From Phycisphaerales bacterium (GTDB lineage: Bacteria; Planctomycetota; Phycisphaerae; Phycisphaerales; UBA1924), in assembly GCA_046153875.1 (NCBI GenBank), contig JBJXFE010000046.1:1-61994 (forward strand): a stretch of 61,994 bases of DNA. The letters run 5' to 3'. How positions within the stretch are numbered: the first letter of the stretch is position 1; each line of letters begins with the position of its first letter. Of the stretch, positions 41,440 through 61,994 are shown one piece after another. A model generated the notes under the pieces. It saw only the letters and a program-made list of their open reading frames with translations. It had not been told where the DNA came from and searched no databases. The position numbers were made by a program, and so were the translations under genes.

Positions 41440-41513
41440 CGGGGTGTAGCGCAGCTTGGTAGCGCGTCTCGTTCGGGTCGAGAAGGTCGCAGGTTCGAAT
41501 CCTGTCACCCCGA
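41440..41513 (+). tRNA. tRNA-Pro (anticodon CGG)
   Basis: Cloverleaf folded by hand: acceptor CGGGGTG/CACCCCG, D-arm GCGC-AGCTTGGTA-GCGC, anticodon stem TCTCG/CGAGA with loop TTCGGGT (anticodon CGG), variable loop AGGTC, T-arm GCAGG-TTCGAAT-CCTGT, discriminator A. CCA not encoded. Confidence 0.9.
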
Positions 41514-41524
41514 TTCACACCAGG

Positions 41525-41546
41525 CCCCCGCCCGTGCGGGGGTTTT
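41525..41546 (+). terminator. putative intrinsic terminator downstream of tRNA-Pro
   Basis: Hairpin CCCCCGC-ccgt-GCGGGGG followed by TTTTGTGTTT. Confidence 0.55.
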
Positions 41547-41607
41547 GTGTTTCCTGGGCTTGCCGGCCTTCGCGGCGTGACCGCACCCTGACCAAGGAGC
41601 ACGCACG

Positions 41608-42039
41608 ATGCCGGACACGATCGTGCAGCCGTACCTGTTCTTCGGTGGTCGATGCGAGGAAGCCCTGGCGTTCTACGGCTCCGCGCTCGGGGCCCGGGTA
41701 GAAATGCTCCTGCGTTTCAGCGAAAGCCCGGAACCCGCGCCGCCCGGCGTGCTCCAGCCCGGTTTTGAGAACAAGGTCATGCACTCCTCCTTTCGCATCG
41801 GCGACACCACCGTCAAGGCGTCCGATGGTTGCCACGAGACTTCGAGCTTCAGCGGGTTCTCGCTCTCACTCGCCGTGCCGACGGCCGCCGAAGCCGATCG
41901 GGCGTTCGCCGCGCTGGCCGAGGGCGGCCGGGTGACGATGCCGCTGGCCAAGACATTCTGGTCCCCGCGCTTCGGCATGGTCACCGACCGCTTCGGCGTC
42001 GGGTGGATGGTGAGTGTCGCGGCCGGACAGCCGAAGTGA
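41608..42039 (+). CDS. VOC/glyoxalase-family protein (PhnB-like)
   Basis: Length of 143 aa and the motifs PYLFFGGRCEEALAFY...HSSFRIGDTTVKASD...RFGVGWMV are typical of the PhnB/3-demethylubiquinone methyltransferase-like VOC fold. Confidence 0.7.
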   Translation: MPDTIVQPYLFFGGRCEEALAFYGSALGARVEMLLRFSESPEPAPPGVLQPGFENKVMHSSFRIGDTTVKASDGCHETSSFSGFSLSLAVPTAAEADRAFAALAEGGRVTMPLAKTFWSPRFGMVTDRFGVGWMVSVAAGQPK

Positions 42040-42160
42040 CCCCTTGAACACCGGGTCGGCCCGCCCGTCGAACAGGAGCACGCGGAGCCTCGCGCCGCGG
42101 TTCGCTGTGGGCGCGGCGGTTGCCGCGGCCTGACGGCGGGAGTAACATGCAACCTGGAGG

Positions 42161-42631
42161 TTGCACATGAAGCCGTCGAGCACCGACCGCATCGAGAAGA
42201 GCATCGAGATCAAGGCGTCTCCCGCCCGCGTCTGGCGGGCCCTGACCGACCACCGCGAGTTCGGCGCGTGGTTCAGGGTCAACCTGGAGGGGCCGTTCCT
42301 GCCGGGGAAGACCGCCCGGGGGAGGATCACCTATCCCGGCTACGAGCATCTCGTCATGGAGGTCACGGTCGAGACGCTCGAGCCCGAACGCCTCTTCTCG
42401 TTCCGCTGGCACCCCTACGCCGTGGAGCCGGGCGTGGACTACTCGAAGGAGCCGCCCACGCTCGTCGAGTTCCGCCTGCGCAAGACGCCGGGCGGCACAC
42501 ACCTGAGCGTCACCGAGTCGGGCTTCGACGCGATCCCCGCGGGCCGGCGCGCCGAGGCGTTCCGCATGAACAGCAGCGGGTGGGCGGAGCAGGTGAAGAA
42601 CATCCTCAACCATGTCACCGCGAATCCATGA
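42161..42631 (+). CDS. SRPBCC-superfamily protein, AHSA1 (activator of Hsp90 ATPase homolog 1-like) domain
   Basis: IEIKASPARVWRALTDHREFGAWF...LEFRLRKTPGGTHLSVTESGF is the AHSA1/polyketide_cyc2 pattern. Commonly paired with ArsR regulators. Confidence 0.7.
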   Translation: MHMKPSSTDRIEKSIEIKASPARVWRALTDHREFGAWFRVNLEGPFLPGKTARGRITYPGYEHLVMEVTVETLEPERLFSFRWHPYAVEPGVDYSKEPPTLVEFRLRKTPGGTHLSVTESGFDAIPAGRRAEAFRMNSSGWAEQVKNILNHVTANP

Positions 42632-42959
42632 GCCGGCCGTTCGCGCGCTCCGCCGCCAGGCGCCGCTCTTCGCGGCCCTGGCCGACCCGACGCGCCTGGC
42701 GCTGCTGACGAAGCTCTCCGGCGGCGCGTCGCTCTCCATCGCGAGCCTCGCGGAGGGCACGCGGCTCACGCGCCAGGCGATCACCAAGCATCTGCGTGTG
42801 CTGAGAAACGCGCGGCTCGTCCGGGGCGTGCGCCGCGGGCGCGAGAGGCTCTTCCGGCTCGAGCCGGAGCCGCTCGCCGAGGCGCGACGCGCCCTCGACG
42901 GCATCGCCCGGCAGTGGGGTCTCGCGCTCGCGCGCCTGAAGGCGTTCGTCGAGGCGTAA
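42612..42959 (+). CDS. ArsR/SmtB-family winged-helix transcriptional regulator
   Basis: FAALADPTRLALLTKLSGGASLSIASLAEGTRLTRQAITKHLRVLRNARLV is the ArsR HTH signature. Overlaps the AHSA1 gene by 20 bp. Confidence 0.7.
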   Translation: MSPRIHEPAVRALRRQAPLFAALADPTRLALLTKLSGGASLSIASLAEGTRLTRQAITKHLRVLRNARLVRGVRRGRERLFRLEPEPLAEARRALDGIARQWGLALARLKAFVEA

Positions 42960-57872: not shown

Positions 57873-58334
57873 ATGAACCGCCGCAGCGTCAAACCACGCT
57901 CGTGCTGGGAAGACCGCTTCCGTGCGCCGTCGGTCTCGGAACTCCGCGGCCTGCTCTCCAAGCAGCACGTCCAGCTCTTTGACGCGGCCCGTGAAGCCCT
58001 GCTCGCGCTCGGCGGCGTCAGCGAGTCGATCGAGTGGCGCGGCGTGCCGTGGCGGTGGACCCTCGCGTTCCAAGTCGAGCCCGCACGCCCGCTCGCCTAC
58101 CTGGTCCCTCAGCCCGCCAGACCGCGCCTGGCCGTGCCCGTCACCGACGACGTGGTCGCGTCGCTCGCGGCCCGCAGGGTGTCGCGCTCGATCCGTGATG
58201 CGATCGTCTTCGCGCCGCGCGTCGGCGAGGTCCTGTGGCCGTCGTGGGAGCTGCTCGGGCGCACGCAGATCGACGAGCTGCTGGAACTCGTCCGCGCCAA
58301 GCACGACGGTGTCTGTGACGCCGTCTCGTCGTGA
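57873..58334 (+). CDS. hypothetical protein upstream of dacB
   Basis: 153-codon frame with genome-typical GC3. No recognised domain. Confidence 0.4.
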   Translation: MNRRSVKPRSCWEDRFRAPSVSELRGLLSKQHVQLFDAAREALLALGGVSESIEWRGVPWRWTLAFQVEPARPLAYLVPQPARPRLAVPVTDDVVASLAARRVSRSIRDAIVFAPRVGEVLWPSWELLGRTQIDELLELVRAKHDGVCDAVSS

Positions 58335-58480: not shown

Positions 58481-60055
58481 ATGCCGATCCGTGTGGGTGG
58501 TGCCGTGCGCGGCGGGGTGTATCCGTGCCTGACGGCCGCGGCGATGGTCGCGGCCTGCGTTCCCCACGCCGGCGCCCAGCCCCTGAACCGCGCGATCGAT
58601 GGCCTGATCGCCACCCACAAGCTCGCCGGCGCCCGCGTCGCCGTGAGCGTTGTCGATCTGCACACCGGGGCTACACTCGCGTCCACGCGCCCGGATGAGG
58701 CAATGATCCCCGCGTCCAACATGAAGCTGCTCACCTCCGGGGCCGCCCTGGAAGTGCTCGGCGGTTCGTTCGCGTTCCGCACGGAACTGCTGCTCAGCGG
58801 CGACACGGTCGTCATCCGCGGCTCGGGAGACCCGTCGCTCGGCGACCCGGCCGCGCTGGAGCGAACCGAGCCGCGACTCGGCGTGGCCGACCTGCTGGCG
58901 CGCCTGGCGCGTGCGGTCCGCGAAGCGGGCGTCACGCGCGTGTCGCGTGTCGTCGTGGACGACCGCGTCTTCGACCGCGAACGTGTCCACCCGACCTGGG
59001 ACCGGGCCGACCTGGTGAAGTCCTACGCGGCCGAGGTCTCCGGCGTGTCGTTCCACGGGAACTTTGTCTCCGTGTTCCCCGCGCCCGCGCCCTCCGGACC
59101 GGGCAGCCCGCCGGTTGTCGCGTTCGAGCCCGAGGCTCCGTGGATCGAGTTCGAGAACAAGGCGCGGACCGGCGACAAGAGCGGAACCTCGGCGTGGGTC
59201 CTCCGGTCCGAGCACGGCGACGTGTTCACGCTCTTCGGCGAGGTCAGCGCCCGCGTCACCATCGACGTCTCGATCCACGACGCCCCGATCCACGCCGGAC
59301 GGCTGATCGCCGCGGCGCTGCTGGACGCCGGCGTGAGTGTCGGCGACGCGCCCGCGGCCACCGGCGGGCGCCGCCCGTCGACCGACCAGCTCCGGCTCGC
59401 GTTCCCTGCCGTGGAGCTCGCGGGCGACGGGGAGCGCTTCGACAAGACCCGGACGCTCGCCGTCGTCGCGGCCCCGCTCGACGACGTCATGCTCCGGTGC
59501 AACACGGACTCACGGAACCTCTACGCCGAGTGCCTGCTCAAGCGGGTCGGGCACGAGGTCACACGCGAACCGGGATCGTGGGCCAACGGCGCATCGGTCG
59601 TCCGCATGAAGCTCGCGGAGCGGCTCGGCCCCGAGTTCGCCGCGGGGGCTGTCGTCGCCGACGGGTCGGGTCTGAGCCGCGACAACAGGGTCTCCGCCCG
59701 TACCTTCACGCGATGGCTGGCGGCCATGGCCGAGTCCGACCACGCCCGCGCGTACCTCGCGTCGCTCGCCACGCCCGGGCAGGGGACGCTCCGCCGGCGC
59801 TTCCGCGGGATGTCGATGCAGAACGACCTCTACGCCAAGAGCGGATCGATCGAGGGGGTGCGCTGCCTCTCCGGCTACGTCGTGAACCCCAAGACCGATC
59901 GACGCATCGCGTTCAGCATCCTCGTCAACGACCTGCCCTCGGGGCAGAACGGCGCGGCGCTCAAGCTGCACGAGCAGGTGATCGGCGAGATCGACCAGTG
60001 GCTGTCCGCGGCCGCGGGGGTCACGGCCGGCGCGCCCGAGGACCACGGGCGGTAA
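58481..60055 (+). CDS. dacB: D-alanyl-D-alanine carboxypeptidase/endopeptidase, PBP4 (peptidase S13)
   Basis: Signal peptide, active-site SxxK (PASNMKLLT), SxN and KTG-like (KSGSIEG) motifs. ATG at 58481 after GGGAGGGACC. Confidence 0.85.
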   Translation: MPIRVGGAVRGGVYPCLTAAAMVAACVPHAGAQPLNRAIDGLIATHKLAGARVAVSVVDLHTGATLASTRPDEAMIPASNMKLLTSGAALEVLGGSFAFRTELLLSGDTVVIRGSGDPSLGDPAALERTEPRLGVADLLARLARAVREAGVTRVSRVVVDDRVFDRERVHPTWDRADLVKSYAAEVSGVSFHGNFVSVFPAPAPSGPGSPPVVAFEPEAPWIEFENKARTGDKSGTSAWVLRSEHGDVFTLFGEVSARVTIDVSIHDAPIHAGRLIAAALLDAGVSVGDAPAATGGRRPSTDQLRLAFPAVELAGDGERFDKTRTLAVVAAPLDDVMLRCNTDSRNLYAECLLKRVGHEVTREPGSWANGASVVRMKLAERLGPEFAAGAVVADGSGLSRDNRVSARTFTRWLAAMAESDHARAYLASLATPGQGTLRRRFRGMSMQNDLYAKSGSIEGVRCLSGYVVNPKTDRRIAFSILVNDLPSGQNGAALKLHEQVIGEIDQWLSAAAGVTAGAPEDHGR

Positions 60056-60070
60056 CCCAACGGACGCCGG

Positions 60071-60258
60071 TTACAGCCCCAGCTCCCTCCACCGCGCGCG
60101 GCCCGGTCCTGCATCTCGCGCGACATGCGGATGATCGGCGGCCAGTCGCGCACGGGCTGGCCGTGGCGCTCGTCGCCCCGGAGCTTGGGGGTGGCGTCGA
60201 ACGCGATGCGCCGCCCGCAGACGCTCACCGAGCGGTCACGGTCCGGGGATGAGTTGGC
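60071..60258 (-). pseudogene. decayed duplicate of the 3-prime end of the UbiD-family gene (last ~60 codons), 1-bp frameshift relative to the intact copy
   Basis: ~80% nucleotide identity to 60902-61090 (e.g. identical 29-mer gacatgcggatgatcggcggccagtcgcg). Translation ...SSPDRDRSVSVCGRRIAFDATPKLRGDERHGQPVRDWPPIIRMSREMQD, then frameshifted versus intact ...SSPDRDRHLSKCGRRVAFDATPKLPGDERHGHPVRDWPPIIRMSKDMQDHVARRWGELGL*. Confidence 0.6.
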
Positions 60259-60366
60259 ATGGGCCAGGTCCGCGGTACATGCTGCTGATTCCGGCAACAG
60301 AGTCAGGAGCCGCCGTGCCCGCGCGAAGTCCCAAGCCGGGGAACGAAAGGGGAGAATGCGGCGTGC

Positions 60367-60843
60367 TCAGCGGCCGCGTGGGGGCTGGCGTTTCTCGGCG
60401 GGTCTCCTGGGCCTCTTCTTGCCCGACACCGCCCTGATCTGCATGACGCCGCGCTTGGTCTTGGTGTCGAAAGGCGTCGGCGAGGCGGCGGCGGCGCGGA
60501 TGAGGCGTTTGACGACCGGCTTGTCCAAGTCGGCGGCCGCGGCGAGGCGGAGCCAGCGGACCTGGTTTCCGCCGCCCTGCAGCAGCCCGTCCGGGTCCGC
60601 CAGGTCCACGCCCCAGATGAAGCAGAGCGTGACGTGGTCCGTGTAGATCGCGATCGAGACCACAGCCTGCGAGGCGCGGTCCGTCGCGCCGAAGCCGATC
60701 ACCAGCGCGTAGGCGTTGTCGTAGACCATCTGCACGGCGCCGGGGAGGAGGCGGCGCACGCGGGCGAGGGCGCCGCGCGCGACCCGGGCGACCGGGGGCG
60801 AATACTCGCCGATGAACTCCTCGAGTTGCTGACGCGGGGTCAC
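60367..60843 (-). CDS. DUF1801-family (YdhG-like) small protein located between the two ubiD 3-prime-end copies
   Basis: Matches E. coli YdhG topology as recalled (LEEFIGEYSPPVARVARGALARVRRLLPGAVQMVYDNAYAL...TDHVTLCFIWG). Probable GTG start at 60843. The track ORF is extended 69 codons. Confidence 0.5.
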   Translation of the reverse strand: MTPRQQLEEFIGEYSPPVARVARGALARVRRLLPGAVQMVYDNAYALVIGFGATDRASQAVVSIAIYTDHVTLCFIWGVDLADPDGLLQGGGNQVRWLRLAAAADLDKPVVKRLIRAAAASPTPFDTKTKRGVMQIRAVSGKKRPRRPAEKRQPPRGR

Positions 60844-60901
60844 GAGGGCAGAGTCTAACAGAGCAGAAGAACGGCACACCGGCGTGTCGTGCCATCCGCC
60901 G

Positions 60902-61994
60902 CTACAGACCCAGTTCCCCCCATCGGCGAGCGACATGGTCCTGCATGTCCTTCGACATGCGGATGATCGGCGGCCAGTCGCGGACGGGGTGGCCGTGGCG
61001 CTCGTCGCCCGGGAGCTTGGGGGTAGCGTCGAAGGCGACGCGACGCCCACACTTGCTCAGGTGGCGGTCGCGGTCGGGGGAGGAGTTGGCGGCCCAGTGG
61101 AAGAAAGTGCCGTCGACGTCGGACAGGTCGGCGTCGGGGCCGAGGATGATGGTCCAGCGCGGCAGGAGGGGCTGAGCGCTCTCGTCGGGCAGGCCGCCGA
61201 GGGCTTTGATGATGCGGGCGCCGTCGCCGGGCTTCTCCTTGGAGGCGCGGATCAGAAGCCACCAGCCGCCGAGAGCATCGGGGATGGCAGCGTCGAGCAC
61301 GCCGGGGATCCCCCCCCCCCGCACCCGGGTTTCGGCGGCGCGGGCGGCATCGCCGAGCACGGGGGGGATGGGGCCGGCGGCGCAGAGCTCGGCGGCCAGC
61401 GGTTCGAGGACGCGGTGCTGTTCCGCATCACCACGCTTGTGCGTTGCGTCCAGGCCCATCTTCGAGCCCGCGCCGAGAAAAGGAGCGGCATGGTCGAGGA
61501 TGTCCAGCGGGCCGCGGACGAGCTCGGTGTCGCGCGCCGGGACGCAGTGCTCACCCACGACCCGAAGCACGCCCGGCGTGTCATGCACGTCCACGTCCTC
61601 ATCCACGACGACGATGGTCTTGGTCCAGGCCATCTGCCCGGCACCCCAGATCGCGTGCATGACGCGCCGGGCCTGAAACGGGTACTCCTTGCGGACTTTC
61701 ACGAAGGCGCAGTTGTGGAATGCGCCGAACATCGGGAGGTCATAGTCGACGATGTCCGGGATGATCGTGCGGAACAGCGGCAGGAAGAGCCGCTCCGTCG
61801 CCTTGCCCATGAAGTAGTCCTCCTGCGGCGGGAGGCCGACGATCGTCGTCGGGTAGATCGGGTTGCGCCGGTGCGTGATCGCGGTGACGGTGAGGATGGG
61901 GTAGCGATCGGGCAGGGAGTAGAAACCGGTGTGGTCGCCGAAAGGCCCCTCGACGACGGCCCCGGGGCCAAGGGCAGGTCCGAGGGTAGGTCGG
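60902..61994 (-). CDS. UbiD-family (prFMN-dependent) decarboxylase, 5-prime-truncated by the window edge
   Basis: The frame is open from the window end through GPFGDHTGFYS...YPILTVTAITHRRNPIYPTTIVGLPP...MGKATERLF... to TAG at 60902 (364 codons in the window). The ORF in the track starting at 61810 is an internal Met. Contains a C11 run (61310-61320) encoding GGG. Confidence 0.8.
   Translation of the reverse strand, partial: RPTLGPALGPGAVVEGPFGDHTGFYSLPDRYPILTVTAITHRRNPIYPTTIVGLPPQEDYFMGKATERLFLPLFRTIIPDIVDYDLPMFGAFHNCAFVKVRKEYPFQARRVMHAIWGAGQMAWTKTIVVVDEDVDVHDTPGVLRVVGEHCVPARDTELVRGPLDILDHAAPFLGAGSKMGLDATHKRGDAEQHRVLEPLAAELCAAGPIPPVLGDAARAAETRVRGGGIPGVLDAAIPDALGGWWLLIRASKEKPGDGARIIKALGGLPDESAQPLLPRWTIILGPDADLSDVDGTFFHWAANSSPDRDRHLSKCGRRVAFDATPKLPGDERHGHPVRDWPPIIRMSKDMQDHVARRWGELGL

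What the first reader, a model, noticed from the sequence alone, without database searches (positions are those of the whole stretch)
60071..61090. 188-bp decayed direct duplication of the ubiD 3-prime end brackets a 643-bp insert carrying a DUF1801 gene
Positions 60071-60258 repeat 60902-61090 (the last ~60 codons plus stop of the UbiD-family gene) at ~80% identity. The copy starts 16 bp after the dacB stop and carries a 1-bp deletion that destroys the frame. Between the copies lie 643 bp (60259-60901) containing a DUF1801 gene. The arrangement is [displaced decayed old 3-prime end]-[cargo]-[functional 3-prime end], as left by elements that integrate into the 3-prime end of a protein-coding gene and supply a replacement end. 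No integrase is present in the window, so this may be a remnant. A plain tandem duplication would not give this order.
Basis: seen in the sequence. Interest (0 to 1): 0.55.

Follow-up and report, generated by a model that had tools for sequence, protein, structure and literature searches.

The report
Displaced ubiD gene-end recombination scar
A small gene of unknown function was spliced in behind a menaquinone-pathway decarboxylase gene together with a foreign copy of that gene's last 62 codons, pushing the original gene end aside as a dead fragment; this is an ordinary scar of horizontal gene transfer, not a new kind of element.

Summary
Window 60071-60258 (copy A) repeats 60902-61090 (copy B): 157/188 identical (83.5%), one 1-bp gap, far beyond chance. 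Both are the last 62 codons plus stop of a UbiD-family (SCO4490-type menaquinone) decarboxylase on the minus strand. A 158-aa DUF1801 gene lies between them.

In seven related Phycisphaerae loci ubiD and dacB converge directly. Copy A, 15 nt from the dacB stop, therefore sits in the ancestral position, and DUF1801 plus copy B is the inserted DNA. "Decayed" is largely wrong. The differences fall 6/6/19 by codon position (dN/dS about 0.31), and derived amino-acid changes are split evenly between the copies. Simulations disfavour neutral decay of A since a duplication in place. A and B are two diverged functional alleles; A shows one frameshift and perhaps one damaging substitution.

No integrase, transposase, terminal repeat or attC-like structure is present. 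No second case appeared in 77 related loci, and no phage or plasmid carries a matching ubiD end.

Best reading: a recombination scar from DNA of a diverged relative, with one homologous crossover in ubiD and one illegitimate joint. An e14/icd-like integrase element reduced to a remnant is possible but unsupported. This is a new instance of a known kind, of low interest.

The parts
60071..60258 (-). Copy A: displaced, non-functional 3' end of the UbiD-family gene. It has 62 codons plus a TAA stop and a 1-bp deletion in codon 55 (after 60091). It lacks everything upstream of codon -62.
   Evidence: It sits 15 nt from the dacB stop, the position of the ubiD end in relatives.
60259..60366 (-). 108-nt unique spacer between the DUF1801 stop and copy A. 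Its 60258/60259 edge is the novel joint.
   Evidence: No similarity to ubiD upstream of codon -62. No significant fold. No other copy in the window.
60367..60843 (-). DUF1801-domain gene (158 aa, GTG start), the cargo of the insertion.
   Evidence: Pfam PF08818 E = 4e-8. Identical to NCBI protein P0001. Best other homologues are 65-68% identical and lie in unrelated chromosomal contexts. GC3 is 0.94, like the host.
60844..60901 (-). 58-nt intergenic stretch between the ubiD stop and the DUF1801 start. It has a hairpin followed by a U-rich run.
   Evidence: MFE -19.8 kcal/mol, z = -0.69, not significant.
60902..61090 (-). Copy B: the 3' end now in use by the UbiD-family gene (62 codons plus TAG stop), joined seamlessly and in frame to the rest of the gene.
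   Evidence: Colinear with relatives across the boundary (FFHW-AN-S/T-PDRDR).
60902..61994 (-). UbiD-family decarboxylase gene (SCO4490/menaquinone type). Only the C-terminal 363 codons are present because it runs off the contig end.
   Evidence: Pfam UbiD and UbiD_C; TIGR03701 1e-72 (below its full-length cutoff because the gene is partial). PDB UbiD 2idb 9e-43.
58481..60055 (+). dacB (PBP4, peptidase S13), the convergent neighbour that marks the ancestral position of the ubiD end.
   Evidence: Pfam PF02113 5.8e-73 and TIGR00666. The synteny ubiD-> <-dacB-hyp153-response regulator is conserved in Phycisphaerae.

Best explanation
This is a recombination scar left when a foreign DNA segment, carrying the 3' part of a diverged relative's ubiD together with its downstream DUF1801 gene, entered the resident chromosome. 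One crossover was homologous and lay inside ubiD, so the gene stays intact and in frame and now ends in the imported copy B. The other end joined illegitimately at codon -62 of the resident gene. This is either homology-facilitated illegitimate recombination of a linear fragment or, giving the same topology, a single crossover of a small circle. The resident last 62 codons (copy A) were left stranded next to dacB, without a start or promoter. Since then they have picked up one frameshift and perhaps one damaging substitution. No dedicated recombinase is needed. Shown: the repeat, its sharp ends, the ancestral position of copy A, the absence of DUF1801 at this junction in relatives, and the selective signature of the A/B differences. 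Inferred: the polarity (B imported, A resident; the mirror case, with A plus dacB imported into a ubiD-DUF1801 genome, gives the same structure), the identity of the donor, and the enzymology.
For: 1. ubiD and dacB converge directly (tblastn hits less than about 110 bp apart) in L008, L010, L016, L020, L022, L090 and L091. Copy A is 15 nt from the dacB stop. 2. No DUF1801 was found at this junction in 102 related loci. 3. A/B differences fall 6/6/19 by codon position, with dN/dS 0.31. 4. With relatives as outgroups, derived amino-acid changes are balanced. On A they are L11V, V18I, P27R, V53A and possibly D48E. On B they are H10, K13, H34 and H52. A keeps every invariant motif except P27. 5. 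At the nucleotide level A is as close or closer to relatives than B in 12 of 14 comparisons. 6. In simulations of an in-place duplication with A neutral, pN/pS reaches the observed value or lower in only 0.1-5% of runs, and the third-position share reaches the observed value in at most 1.5%. Models with A under selection for at least 75% of its branch fit. 7. The insert has host-like composition, with DUF1801 GC3 of 0.94, as expected for a related donor. 8. There is no integrase, transposase or phage gene in the 62-kb contig, no inverted terminal repeats and no other copy of the insert. 9. The same junction holds unrelated ordinary genes in L001, L005 and L103, so it is a generally permissive convergent intergenic site. 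10. There is precedent for one-sided homologous anchoring with displaced 3' ends (PMC5361080, PMC3240628).
Against: No donor-type arrangement (ubiD directly followed by DUF1801) was found in any related locus. No sister genome closer than about 75% amino-acid identity is available, so the empty site and the crossover point cannot be shown directly. Microhomology at the 60258/60259 joint cannot be assessed without the donor. Homology-facilitated illegitimate recombination is rare where it has been measured (PMC5361080). Identity is uneven along the repeat (78/95/74% by thirds). That could point to a recombination core in the centre or to later gene conversion, although the test on four-fold sites was only marginal. 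The contig is a metagenome assembly and the junctions were not checked against reads.
Confidence: 0.5

Rival explanations
1. Remnant of an integrase-driven integrative element (like e14 or phage 21 at icd) that targets the ubiD 3' end and carries a replacement end. After integration, the integrase and nearly all cargo were deleted, leaving only DUF1801.
For: The anatomy is exactly that of icd-e14-icdC: an intact gene ending in an element-supplied 3' end, then cargo, then the displaced native end (PMC13626634, citing Hill et al. 1989). The A/B differences are largely synonymous or conservative, as expected for an element-borne end kept functional. Copy B carries residues unusual for the clade (K13, H52), consistent with a separate history. 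The homology has sharp ends, and a 30-nt identical block (60121-60150 / 60953-60982) could serve as a core.
Against: The 643 bp between the copies hold one DUF1801 gene plus 58- and 108-nt spacers, leaving no room for a recombinase or its remains. No integrase, transposase or phage gene occurs anywhere in the contig. No second displaced ubiD end was found in 77 related loci. No ubiD-end mimic or DUF1801 relative was found in IMG/VR, INPHARED phages or PLSDB plasmids. Other insertions at this junction in relatives are ordinary genes. The model also needs an extra, very tidy deletion.
Confidence: 0.25
2. An in-place duplication of the ubiD end (tandem duplication of ubiD-3'+DUF1801 followed by deletion, or a similar rearrangement), after which copy A diverged by decay.
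For: The two copies are each other's closest relatives: 81% amino-acid and 83.5% nucleotide identity, against at most 76% amino-acid and 75% nucleotide identity to any sampled relative. Copy A does carry a frameshift and a P27R change at an invariant proline.
Against: The third-position excess (6/6/19) and dN/dS of 0.31 are reached in at most 5%, and mostly under 1.5%, of simulations with A neutral since the split. Derived amino-acid changes are as frequent on the functional copy B as on A. There is only one indel in 188 nt at dS of about 0.4. The model needs at least two rearrangements. Relatives lack DUF1801 at this junction.
Confidence: 0.07
3. Assembly artefact: a chimeric join of two co-occurring related populations in the metagenome.
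For: The contig is from a MAG, and it ends inside ubiD about 900 bp upstream of copy B, which could reflect strain heterogeneity at this locus.
Against: A chimeric join at a shared k-mer would produce one hybrid gene end, not two ends separated by unique DNA. The sequences flanking 60258/60259 share only about 8 nt with the copy B boundary, and the longest identical run between the copies is 30 nt, in the middle of the repeat and not at a joint. There are no Ns.
Confidence: 0.05

Closest known systems
icd-e14-icdC (and phage 21) in Escherichia coli K-12
   Same: An essential metabolic gene stays intact because the incoming DNA supplies a homologous replacement 3' end. The native 3' end is left as a short pseudogene on the far side of the insert. 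The two ends differ mostly by synonymous or conservative changes (PMC13626634).
   Different: e14 is a 15-kb prophage with its own integrase and excises site-specifically. Here the insert is 643 bp with one DUF1801 gene, no recombinase and no recurrence in other genomes. The repeat is also more diverged (83.5%) and carries a frameshift.
Homology-facilitated illegitimate recombination (Acinetobacter, S. pneumoniae, P. stutzeri, E. coli conjugation)
   Same: One homologous anchor, here inside ubiD, plus one illegitimate joint brings in foreign DNA next to the anchor. No mobile-element functions are needed (PMC3240628; PMC5361080 and references there).
   Different: That mechanism is defined experimentally with known donors. 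Here the donor, the crossover point and the junction microhomology are unknown, so the assignment is an inference from the product.
C-terminal displacement arrays at Rhs/CDI/T6SS effector loci
   Same: The incoming module recombines through the conserved upstream part of a gene and shifts the old 3' end downstream as an orphan (PMC5361080, citing Jackson et al. 2009).
   Different: Those loci swap unrelated toxin tips with immunity genes under diversifying selection, often repeatedly. Here a housekeeping decarboxylase receives a homologous end of the same function, once, and the cargo is a DUF1801 gene.
Genomic islands at the 3' ends of protein genes (for example SGI1 at trmE, from my own knowledge)
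   Same: The insertion lies at the 3' end of a conserved gene and is flanked by direct repeats derived from that gene.
   Different: Those repeats are short (about 18 bp) and near identical, and an integrase lies next to the site. Neither is the case here.

Membership tests
Integrase-mediated integrative element targeting a gene 3' end (e14/phage 21 type) | Tyrosine or serine recombinase gene within the element, next to an att site | tested here: not met
   The only ORF with support between the repeats is DUF1801. No integrase, transposase or phage family was found in about 36 proteins covering the contig.
Integrase-mediated integrative element targeting a gene 3' end (e14/phage 21 type) | Direct repeats made of the target gene's 3' end flank the insert, and the gene remains intact | tested here: met
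   188/189-nt repeat at 83.5% identity. Copy B is in frame and colinear with relatives.
Integrase-mediated integrative element targeting a gene 3' end (e14/phage 21 type) | The same element or attP mimic recurs in other genomes, phages or plasmids | tested here: not met
   No second ubiD end in 77 related loci. No hits in IMG/VR, INPHARED or PLSDB. DUF1801 homologues lie in unrelated contexts.
Integrase-mediated integrative element targeting a gene 3' end (e14/phage 21 type) | Empty site in related genomes | tested here: met
   ubiD-> <-dacB are directly adjacent in L008, L010, L016, L020, L022, L090 and L091. These relatives are only 50-75% identical in UbiD, so this is the ancestral state, not a strain-level empty site.
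Homology-facilitated illegitimate recombination / one-sided homologous replacement | The imported segment is a diverged homologue continuous with the resident gene (homologous anchor) | tested here: inconclusive
   The A/B divergence has the signature of two functional alleles, and copy B is seamless with upstream ubiD. The crossover point upstream cannot be located without a close relative.
Homology-facilitated illegitimate recombination / one-sided homologous replacement | Illegitimate joint with short microhomology at the other end | not testable with these tools
   The joint at 60258/60259 is sharp. Only GCCAAC(TC) and a loose CTGGnCC are shared with the copy B boundary. The donor sequence is needed.
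Tandem duplication | Copies identical at birth, the non-functional copy then evolving neutrally | tested here: not met
   Codon-position bias 6/6/19, dN/dS 0.31, balanced derived changes, and simulations.
Integron gene cassette | attC-like imperfect inverted repeat at the cassette end and a nearby IntI | tested here: not met
   No inverted repeat at the insert ends. The spacer folds worse than its shuffles. No integrase.
Rhs/CDI-type C-terminal displacement | Polymorphic toxin tip plus immunity gene | tested here: not met
   The gene is a UbiD-family decarboxylase. The displaced and replacing ends are homologous. The cargo is DUF1801.

The most novel reading that the evidence does not exclude
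The 832-bp unit (ubiD replacement end plus DUF1801) is a minimal, recombinase-less gene cassette. On this reading it spreads among Phycisphaerales by carrying a functional mimic of the 3' end of an essential gene, integrating by host recombination or an integrase acting in trans. The frameshift in the displaced end lies downstream of the 30-nt identical block, so any repeat-mediated deletion would inherit it and damage ubiD, locking the cassette in.
Probability: 0.05. Interest if true: 0.6.

Novelty: new member of a known kind. Interest (0 to 1): 0.2.

Why it matters
It is a clean, datable example of how a single accessory gene can enter a bacterial chromosome without any mobile-element machinery while keeping an essential neighbouring gene intact. 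It also shows that a "decayed duplicate" can in fact be the resident allele displaced by a foreign one. For annotation, 60071-60258 should be flagged as a ubiD pseudogene fragment, and the ubiD end now in use should be treated as probably xenologous. Beyond that it is an ordinary scar of genome evolution in an uncultured Phycisphaerales lineage.

Tried and rejected
- **Closer relatives.** I looked for a sister genome showing the empty site or the donor arrangement. The GTDB species representatives, JGI metagenome contigs and the 5.8-billion protein set gave nothing above about 75% amino-acid identity, so no strain-level comparison is possible.
- **DUF1801 next to ubiD elsewhere.** None was found. 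The homologues at 57-68% identity lie beside thioredoxin, glycosyltransferase and DinB/YaeQ/ThuA-type genes.
- **Phage or plasmid carriers of a ubiD-end mimic or of DUF1801.** None was found.
- **Repeats of the insert or its spacers elsewhere in the contig, terminal inverted repeats, structured RNA, Rfam families, nearby tRNA.** Nothing relevant turned up. The one sigma-70-type promoter/terminator scan gave no promoter and only weak terminator-like hits.
- **GC3 as a marker of foreign origin.** Copy B is 0.87, copy A 0.95 and DUF1801 0.94, all within the genome's spread, so it is uninformative.
- **Residual homology beyond either repeat boundary.** None.
- **Mosaic identity along the repeat (78/95/74%).** It is real. 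It is largely explained by amino-acid conservation plus strong codon bias, and my hand count at four-fold sites (2/14 central vs 8/16 flanking differences) is only marginal. I do not build on it.
- **Copy A as a live small gene (ORF 59875-60297).** Rejected as implausible. It has a TTG start, and because of the frameshift it reads about 65 codons antisense through dacB.

Full report
**The observation**

The window is the complete 61,994-bp contig of an NCBI MAG labelled Phycisphaerales bacterium (P0001). On the minus strand, a UbiD-family decarboxylase gene enters from the contig end and stops at 60902. It matches Pfam UbiD and UbiD_C and TIGR03701 'menaquinone biosynthesis decarboxylase' (1e-72, partial), and its best solved relative is UbiD 2idb.

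Its last 62 codons plus stop (60902-61090, copy B) recur at 60071-60258 (copy A). Identity is 157/188 (83.5%), with a single 1-bp gap: copy A lacks a base after 60091, in codon 55. The alignment scores 93, against at most 13 for 3000 random pieces of the same contig, and blastn gives E = 6e-52. Similarity ends abruptly at both edges, at the stop codon and at codon -62.

Copy A's stop is 15 nt from the stop of the convergent dacB gene (PBP4, 58481-60055). The 643 bp between the copies carry one supported gene, a 158-aa DUF1801 protein (60367-60843, minus strand). It is flanked by 58-nt and 108-nt spacers with no significant structure, repeats or Rfam match.

**Which copy sits in the original place**

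UbiD relatives were fetched from GTDB species representatives (80 loci) and JGI metagenomes (22 loci). The order ubiD-> <-dacB, a conserved 153-aa hypothetical gene, then a response regulator is shared across Phycisphaerae. In L008, L010, L016, L020, L022, L090 and L091 the ubiD and dacB ends abut, with tblastn hits less than about 110 bp apart.

Copy A therefore sits exactly where the ubiD end ancestrally sits, and DUF1801 plus copy B is the extra DNA. None of the 102 loci has a DUF1801 gene at this junction. None of the 77 loci containing the ubiD end has a second ubiD-end copy. Three relatives carry other, unrelated ordinary genes between ubiD and dacB: an M16-type peptidase in L001, an ATP-grasp enzyme plus an unknown protein in L005, and a TPR/protease-like protein in L103. 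This convergent intergenic spot is thus generally permissive to gene gain.

**Is copy A a decayed duplicate?**

Mostly it is not. The 31 substitutions fall 6/6/19 on codon positions 1/2/3. Nei-Gojobori estimates give dS of about 0.41, dN of about 0.13 and dN/dS of about 0.31.

Using 19 relatives as outgroups, derived amino-acid changes are balanced:
- On copy A: L11V, V18I, V53A and perhaps D48E, all conservative and at variable positions, plus P27R at an invariant proline.
- On copy B: H10, K13, H34 and H52, where relatives have S/Y/F, V, Q and R respectively.

Copy A retains the invariant CGRR-AFDATPK, GDE and PVRDWPP motifs and its stop codon. At the nucleotide level it is as close or closer to relatives than copy B in 12 of 14 comparisons.

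Simulations tested a duplication in place, with A neutral ever since. They reach the observed pN/pS or lower in 0.1-5% of runs, and the observed third-position share in at most 1.5%. Models in which A was under purifying selection for at least 75% of its branch fit comfortably.

The two copies are therefore two alleles that diverged while both were working gene ends, meaning in different genomes or on different replicons. Copy A became a pseudogene only recently relative to that divergence. The frameshift and perhaps P27R are the only signs of decay. The copies are still each other's nearest relatives (81% amino-acid identity against at most 76% to any sampled sequence), so the source of the foreign end was a fairly close Phycisphaerales lineage. 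The insert's host-like composition agrees with this (DUF1801 GC3 of 0.94).

**Mechanism**

The product is an intact gene ending in a foreign homologous end, then cargo, then the stranded native end. Three routes can produce it:
- (a) A linear fragment from a relative recombines by one homologous crossover inside ubiD and one illegitimate joint at resident codon -62. This is homology-facilitated illegitimate recombination.
- (b) A small circle integrates by a single crossover in the shared segment. The 30-nt identical block at 60121-60150 / 60953-60982 would be sufficient.
- (c) An integrase-driven element carrying a replacement end integrates, as e14 and phage 21 do at icd, leaving icdC (PMC13626634).

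I favour (a) or (b), for four reasons:
- The 643-bp insert has no room for a recombinase, and about 36 proteins covering the contig are all housekeeping or ordinary accessory genes (PolA, MreB/C, CarB, SecA, CstA, kinases, peptidases), with no integrase, transposase or phage family among them.
- There are no terminal inverted repeats or attC-like structures.
- Nothing similar recurs in relatives, IMG/VR, INPHARED phages or PLSDB plasmids.
- DUF1801 homologues (at most 68% identity) lie among small chromosomal accessory genes in unrelated neighbourhoods.

Route (c) also needs a very tidy secondary deletion. It cannot be excluded, because its diagnostic features (crossover at the homology boundary, element-borne end kept functional) are indistinguishable here without a close relative.

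The mirror polarity, with copy A plus dacB imported into a genome that already had ubiD-DUF1801, yields the same structure and is likewise untestable at present. The ancestral adjacency makes 'A resident' the simpler reading.

One-sided homologous anchoring with displaced 3' ends has precedent in Vibrio T6SS and Rhs loci and in transformation and conjugation experiments (PMC5361080, PMC3240628).

**Consequences**

The repeats could recombine and delete DUF1801. The frameshift in copy A lies 3' (in the gene's sense) of all long identical blocks, so such a deletion would give ubiD a frameshifted tail. By inference, this makes loss of the insert costly.

**Caveats**

- No genome closer than about 75% UbiD identity exists in the collections searched. 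The empty site at strain level, the donor and the crossover point are therefore all inferred.
- The contig is a metagenome assembly and ends inside ubiD. An assembly chimera is unlikely, because a k-mer join would give one hybrid end rather than two ends separated by unique DNA, but reads were not available.
- Identity is uneven along the repeat (78/95/74% by thirds). This is mostly explained by protein conservation plus strong codon bias, and I draw nothing from it.

**Verdict**

The 'displaced old end, cargo, replacement end' reading is right in outline. 'Decayed' is largely a misreading of allelic divergence. The integrative-element remnant is possible but unsupported, and recombination with DNA from a diverged relative is the better explanation. 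This is a new instance of a known kind of event and of low general interest.

Noticed in passing
window 61310-61320: An 11-nt C homopolymer (G11 on the coding strand) lies inside the UbiD-family gene. It encodes Gly-Gly-Gly where the closest relatives (L001, L005) have a single Gln. It is in frame here, but a run this long could be slippage-prone or an assembly or sequencing weak spot.
   Followed up: partly
window 60902-61440 (minus strand): The UbiD-family protein continues about 170 residues beyond the end of the UbiD_C domain, of TIGR03701 and of the solved UbiD structures. The middle of this tail is specific to the Phycisphaerae clade. The last 48 or so residues (the duplicated part) also match the C-terminus of shorter homologues in other phyla.
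   Followed up: partly
L001 7075-10040; L005 7069-9267; L103 5363-6866: The convergent ubiD/dacB junction holds different, unrelated genes in different Phycisphaerae: an M16-like peptidase of 939 aa, an ATP-grasp enzyme plus a 339-aa protein, and a 499-aa TPR/protease-like protein. It is empty in at least seven others. It is a recurrent gene-gain spot without mobile-element genes.
   Followed up: partly
window 57873-58334 (+): A 153-aa ORF with no Pfam or NCBIfam match is conserved in position between dacB and the response regulator in many Phycisphaerae loci (33-53% identity). It is a clade-specific conserved hypothetical gene.
   Followed up: partly
window 41440-42956: tRNA-Pro(CGG) at 41440-41513 is followed directly by three small accessory-type genes: a glyoxalase/PhnB-like gene, an AHSA1/SRPBCC gene and an ArsR-type HTH gene. 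This could be a small tRNA-adjacent islet. It was not examined.
   Followed up: no
window 61994 (contig end): The contig stops inside the single-copy ubiD gene about 900 bp upstream of copy B. An assembly break there could reflect co-occurring alleles of this locus in the sample.
   Followed up: no
window 59875-60297 (minus strand): Because of the frameshift, copy A is part of a 140-codon ORF (TTG start) that reads past the old stop and runs antisense through the dacB 3' end. It is probably spurious, but automatic annotation could call it as a gene.
   Followed up: no
window 61760-61811 (minus strand): A sub-threshold Rfam match to the sul1 RNA motif (23.7 bits against a gathering score of 36.2, E = 0.2) lies inside the ubiD coding sequence. 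It is most likely chance.
   Followed up: no
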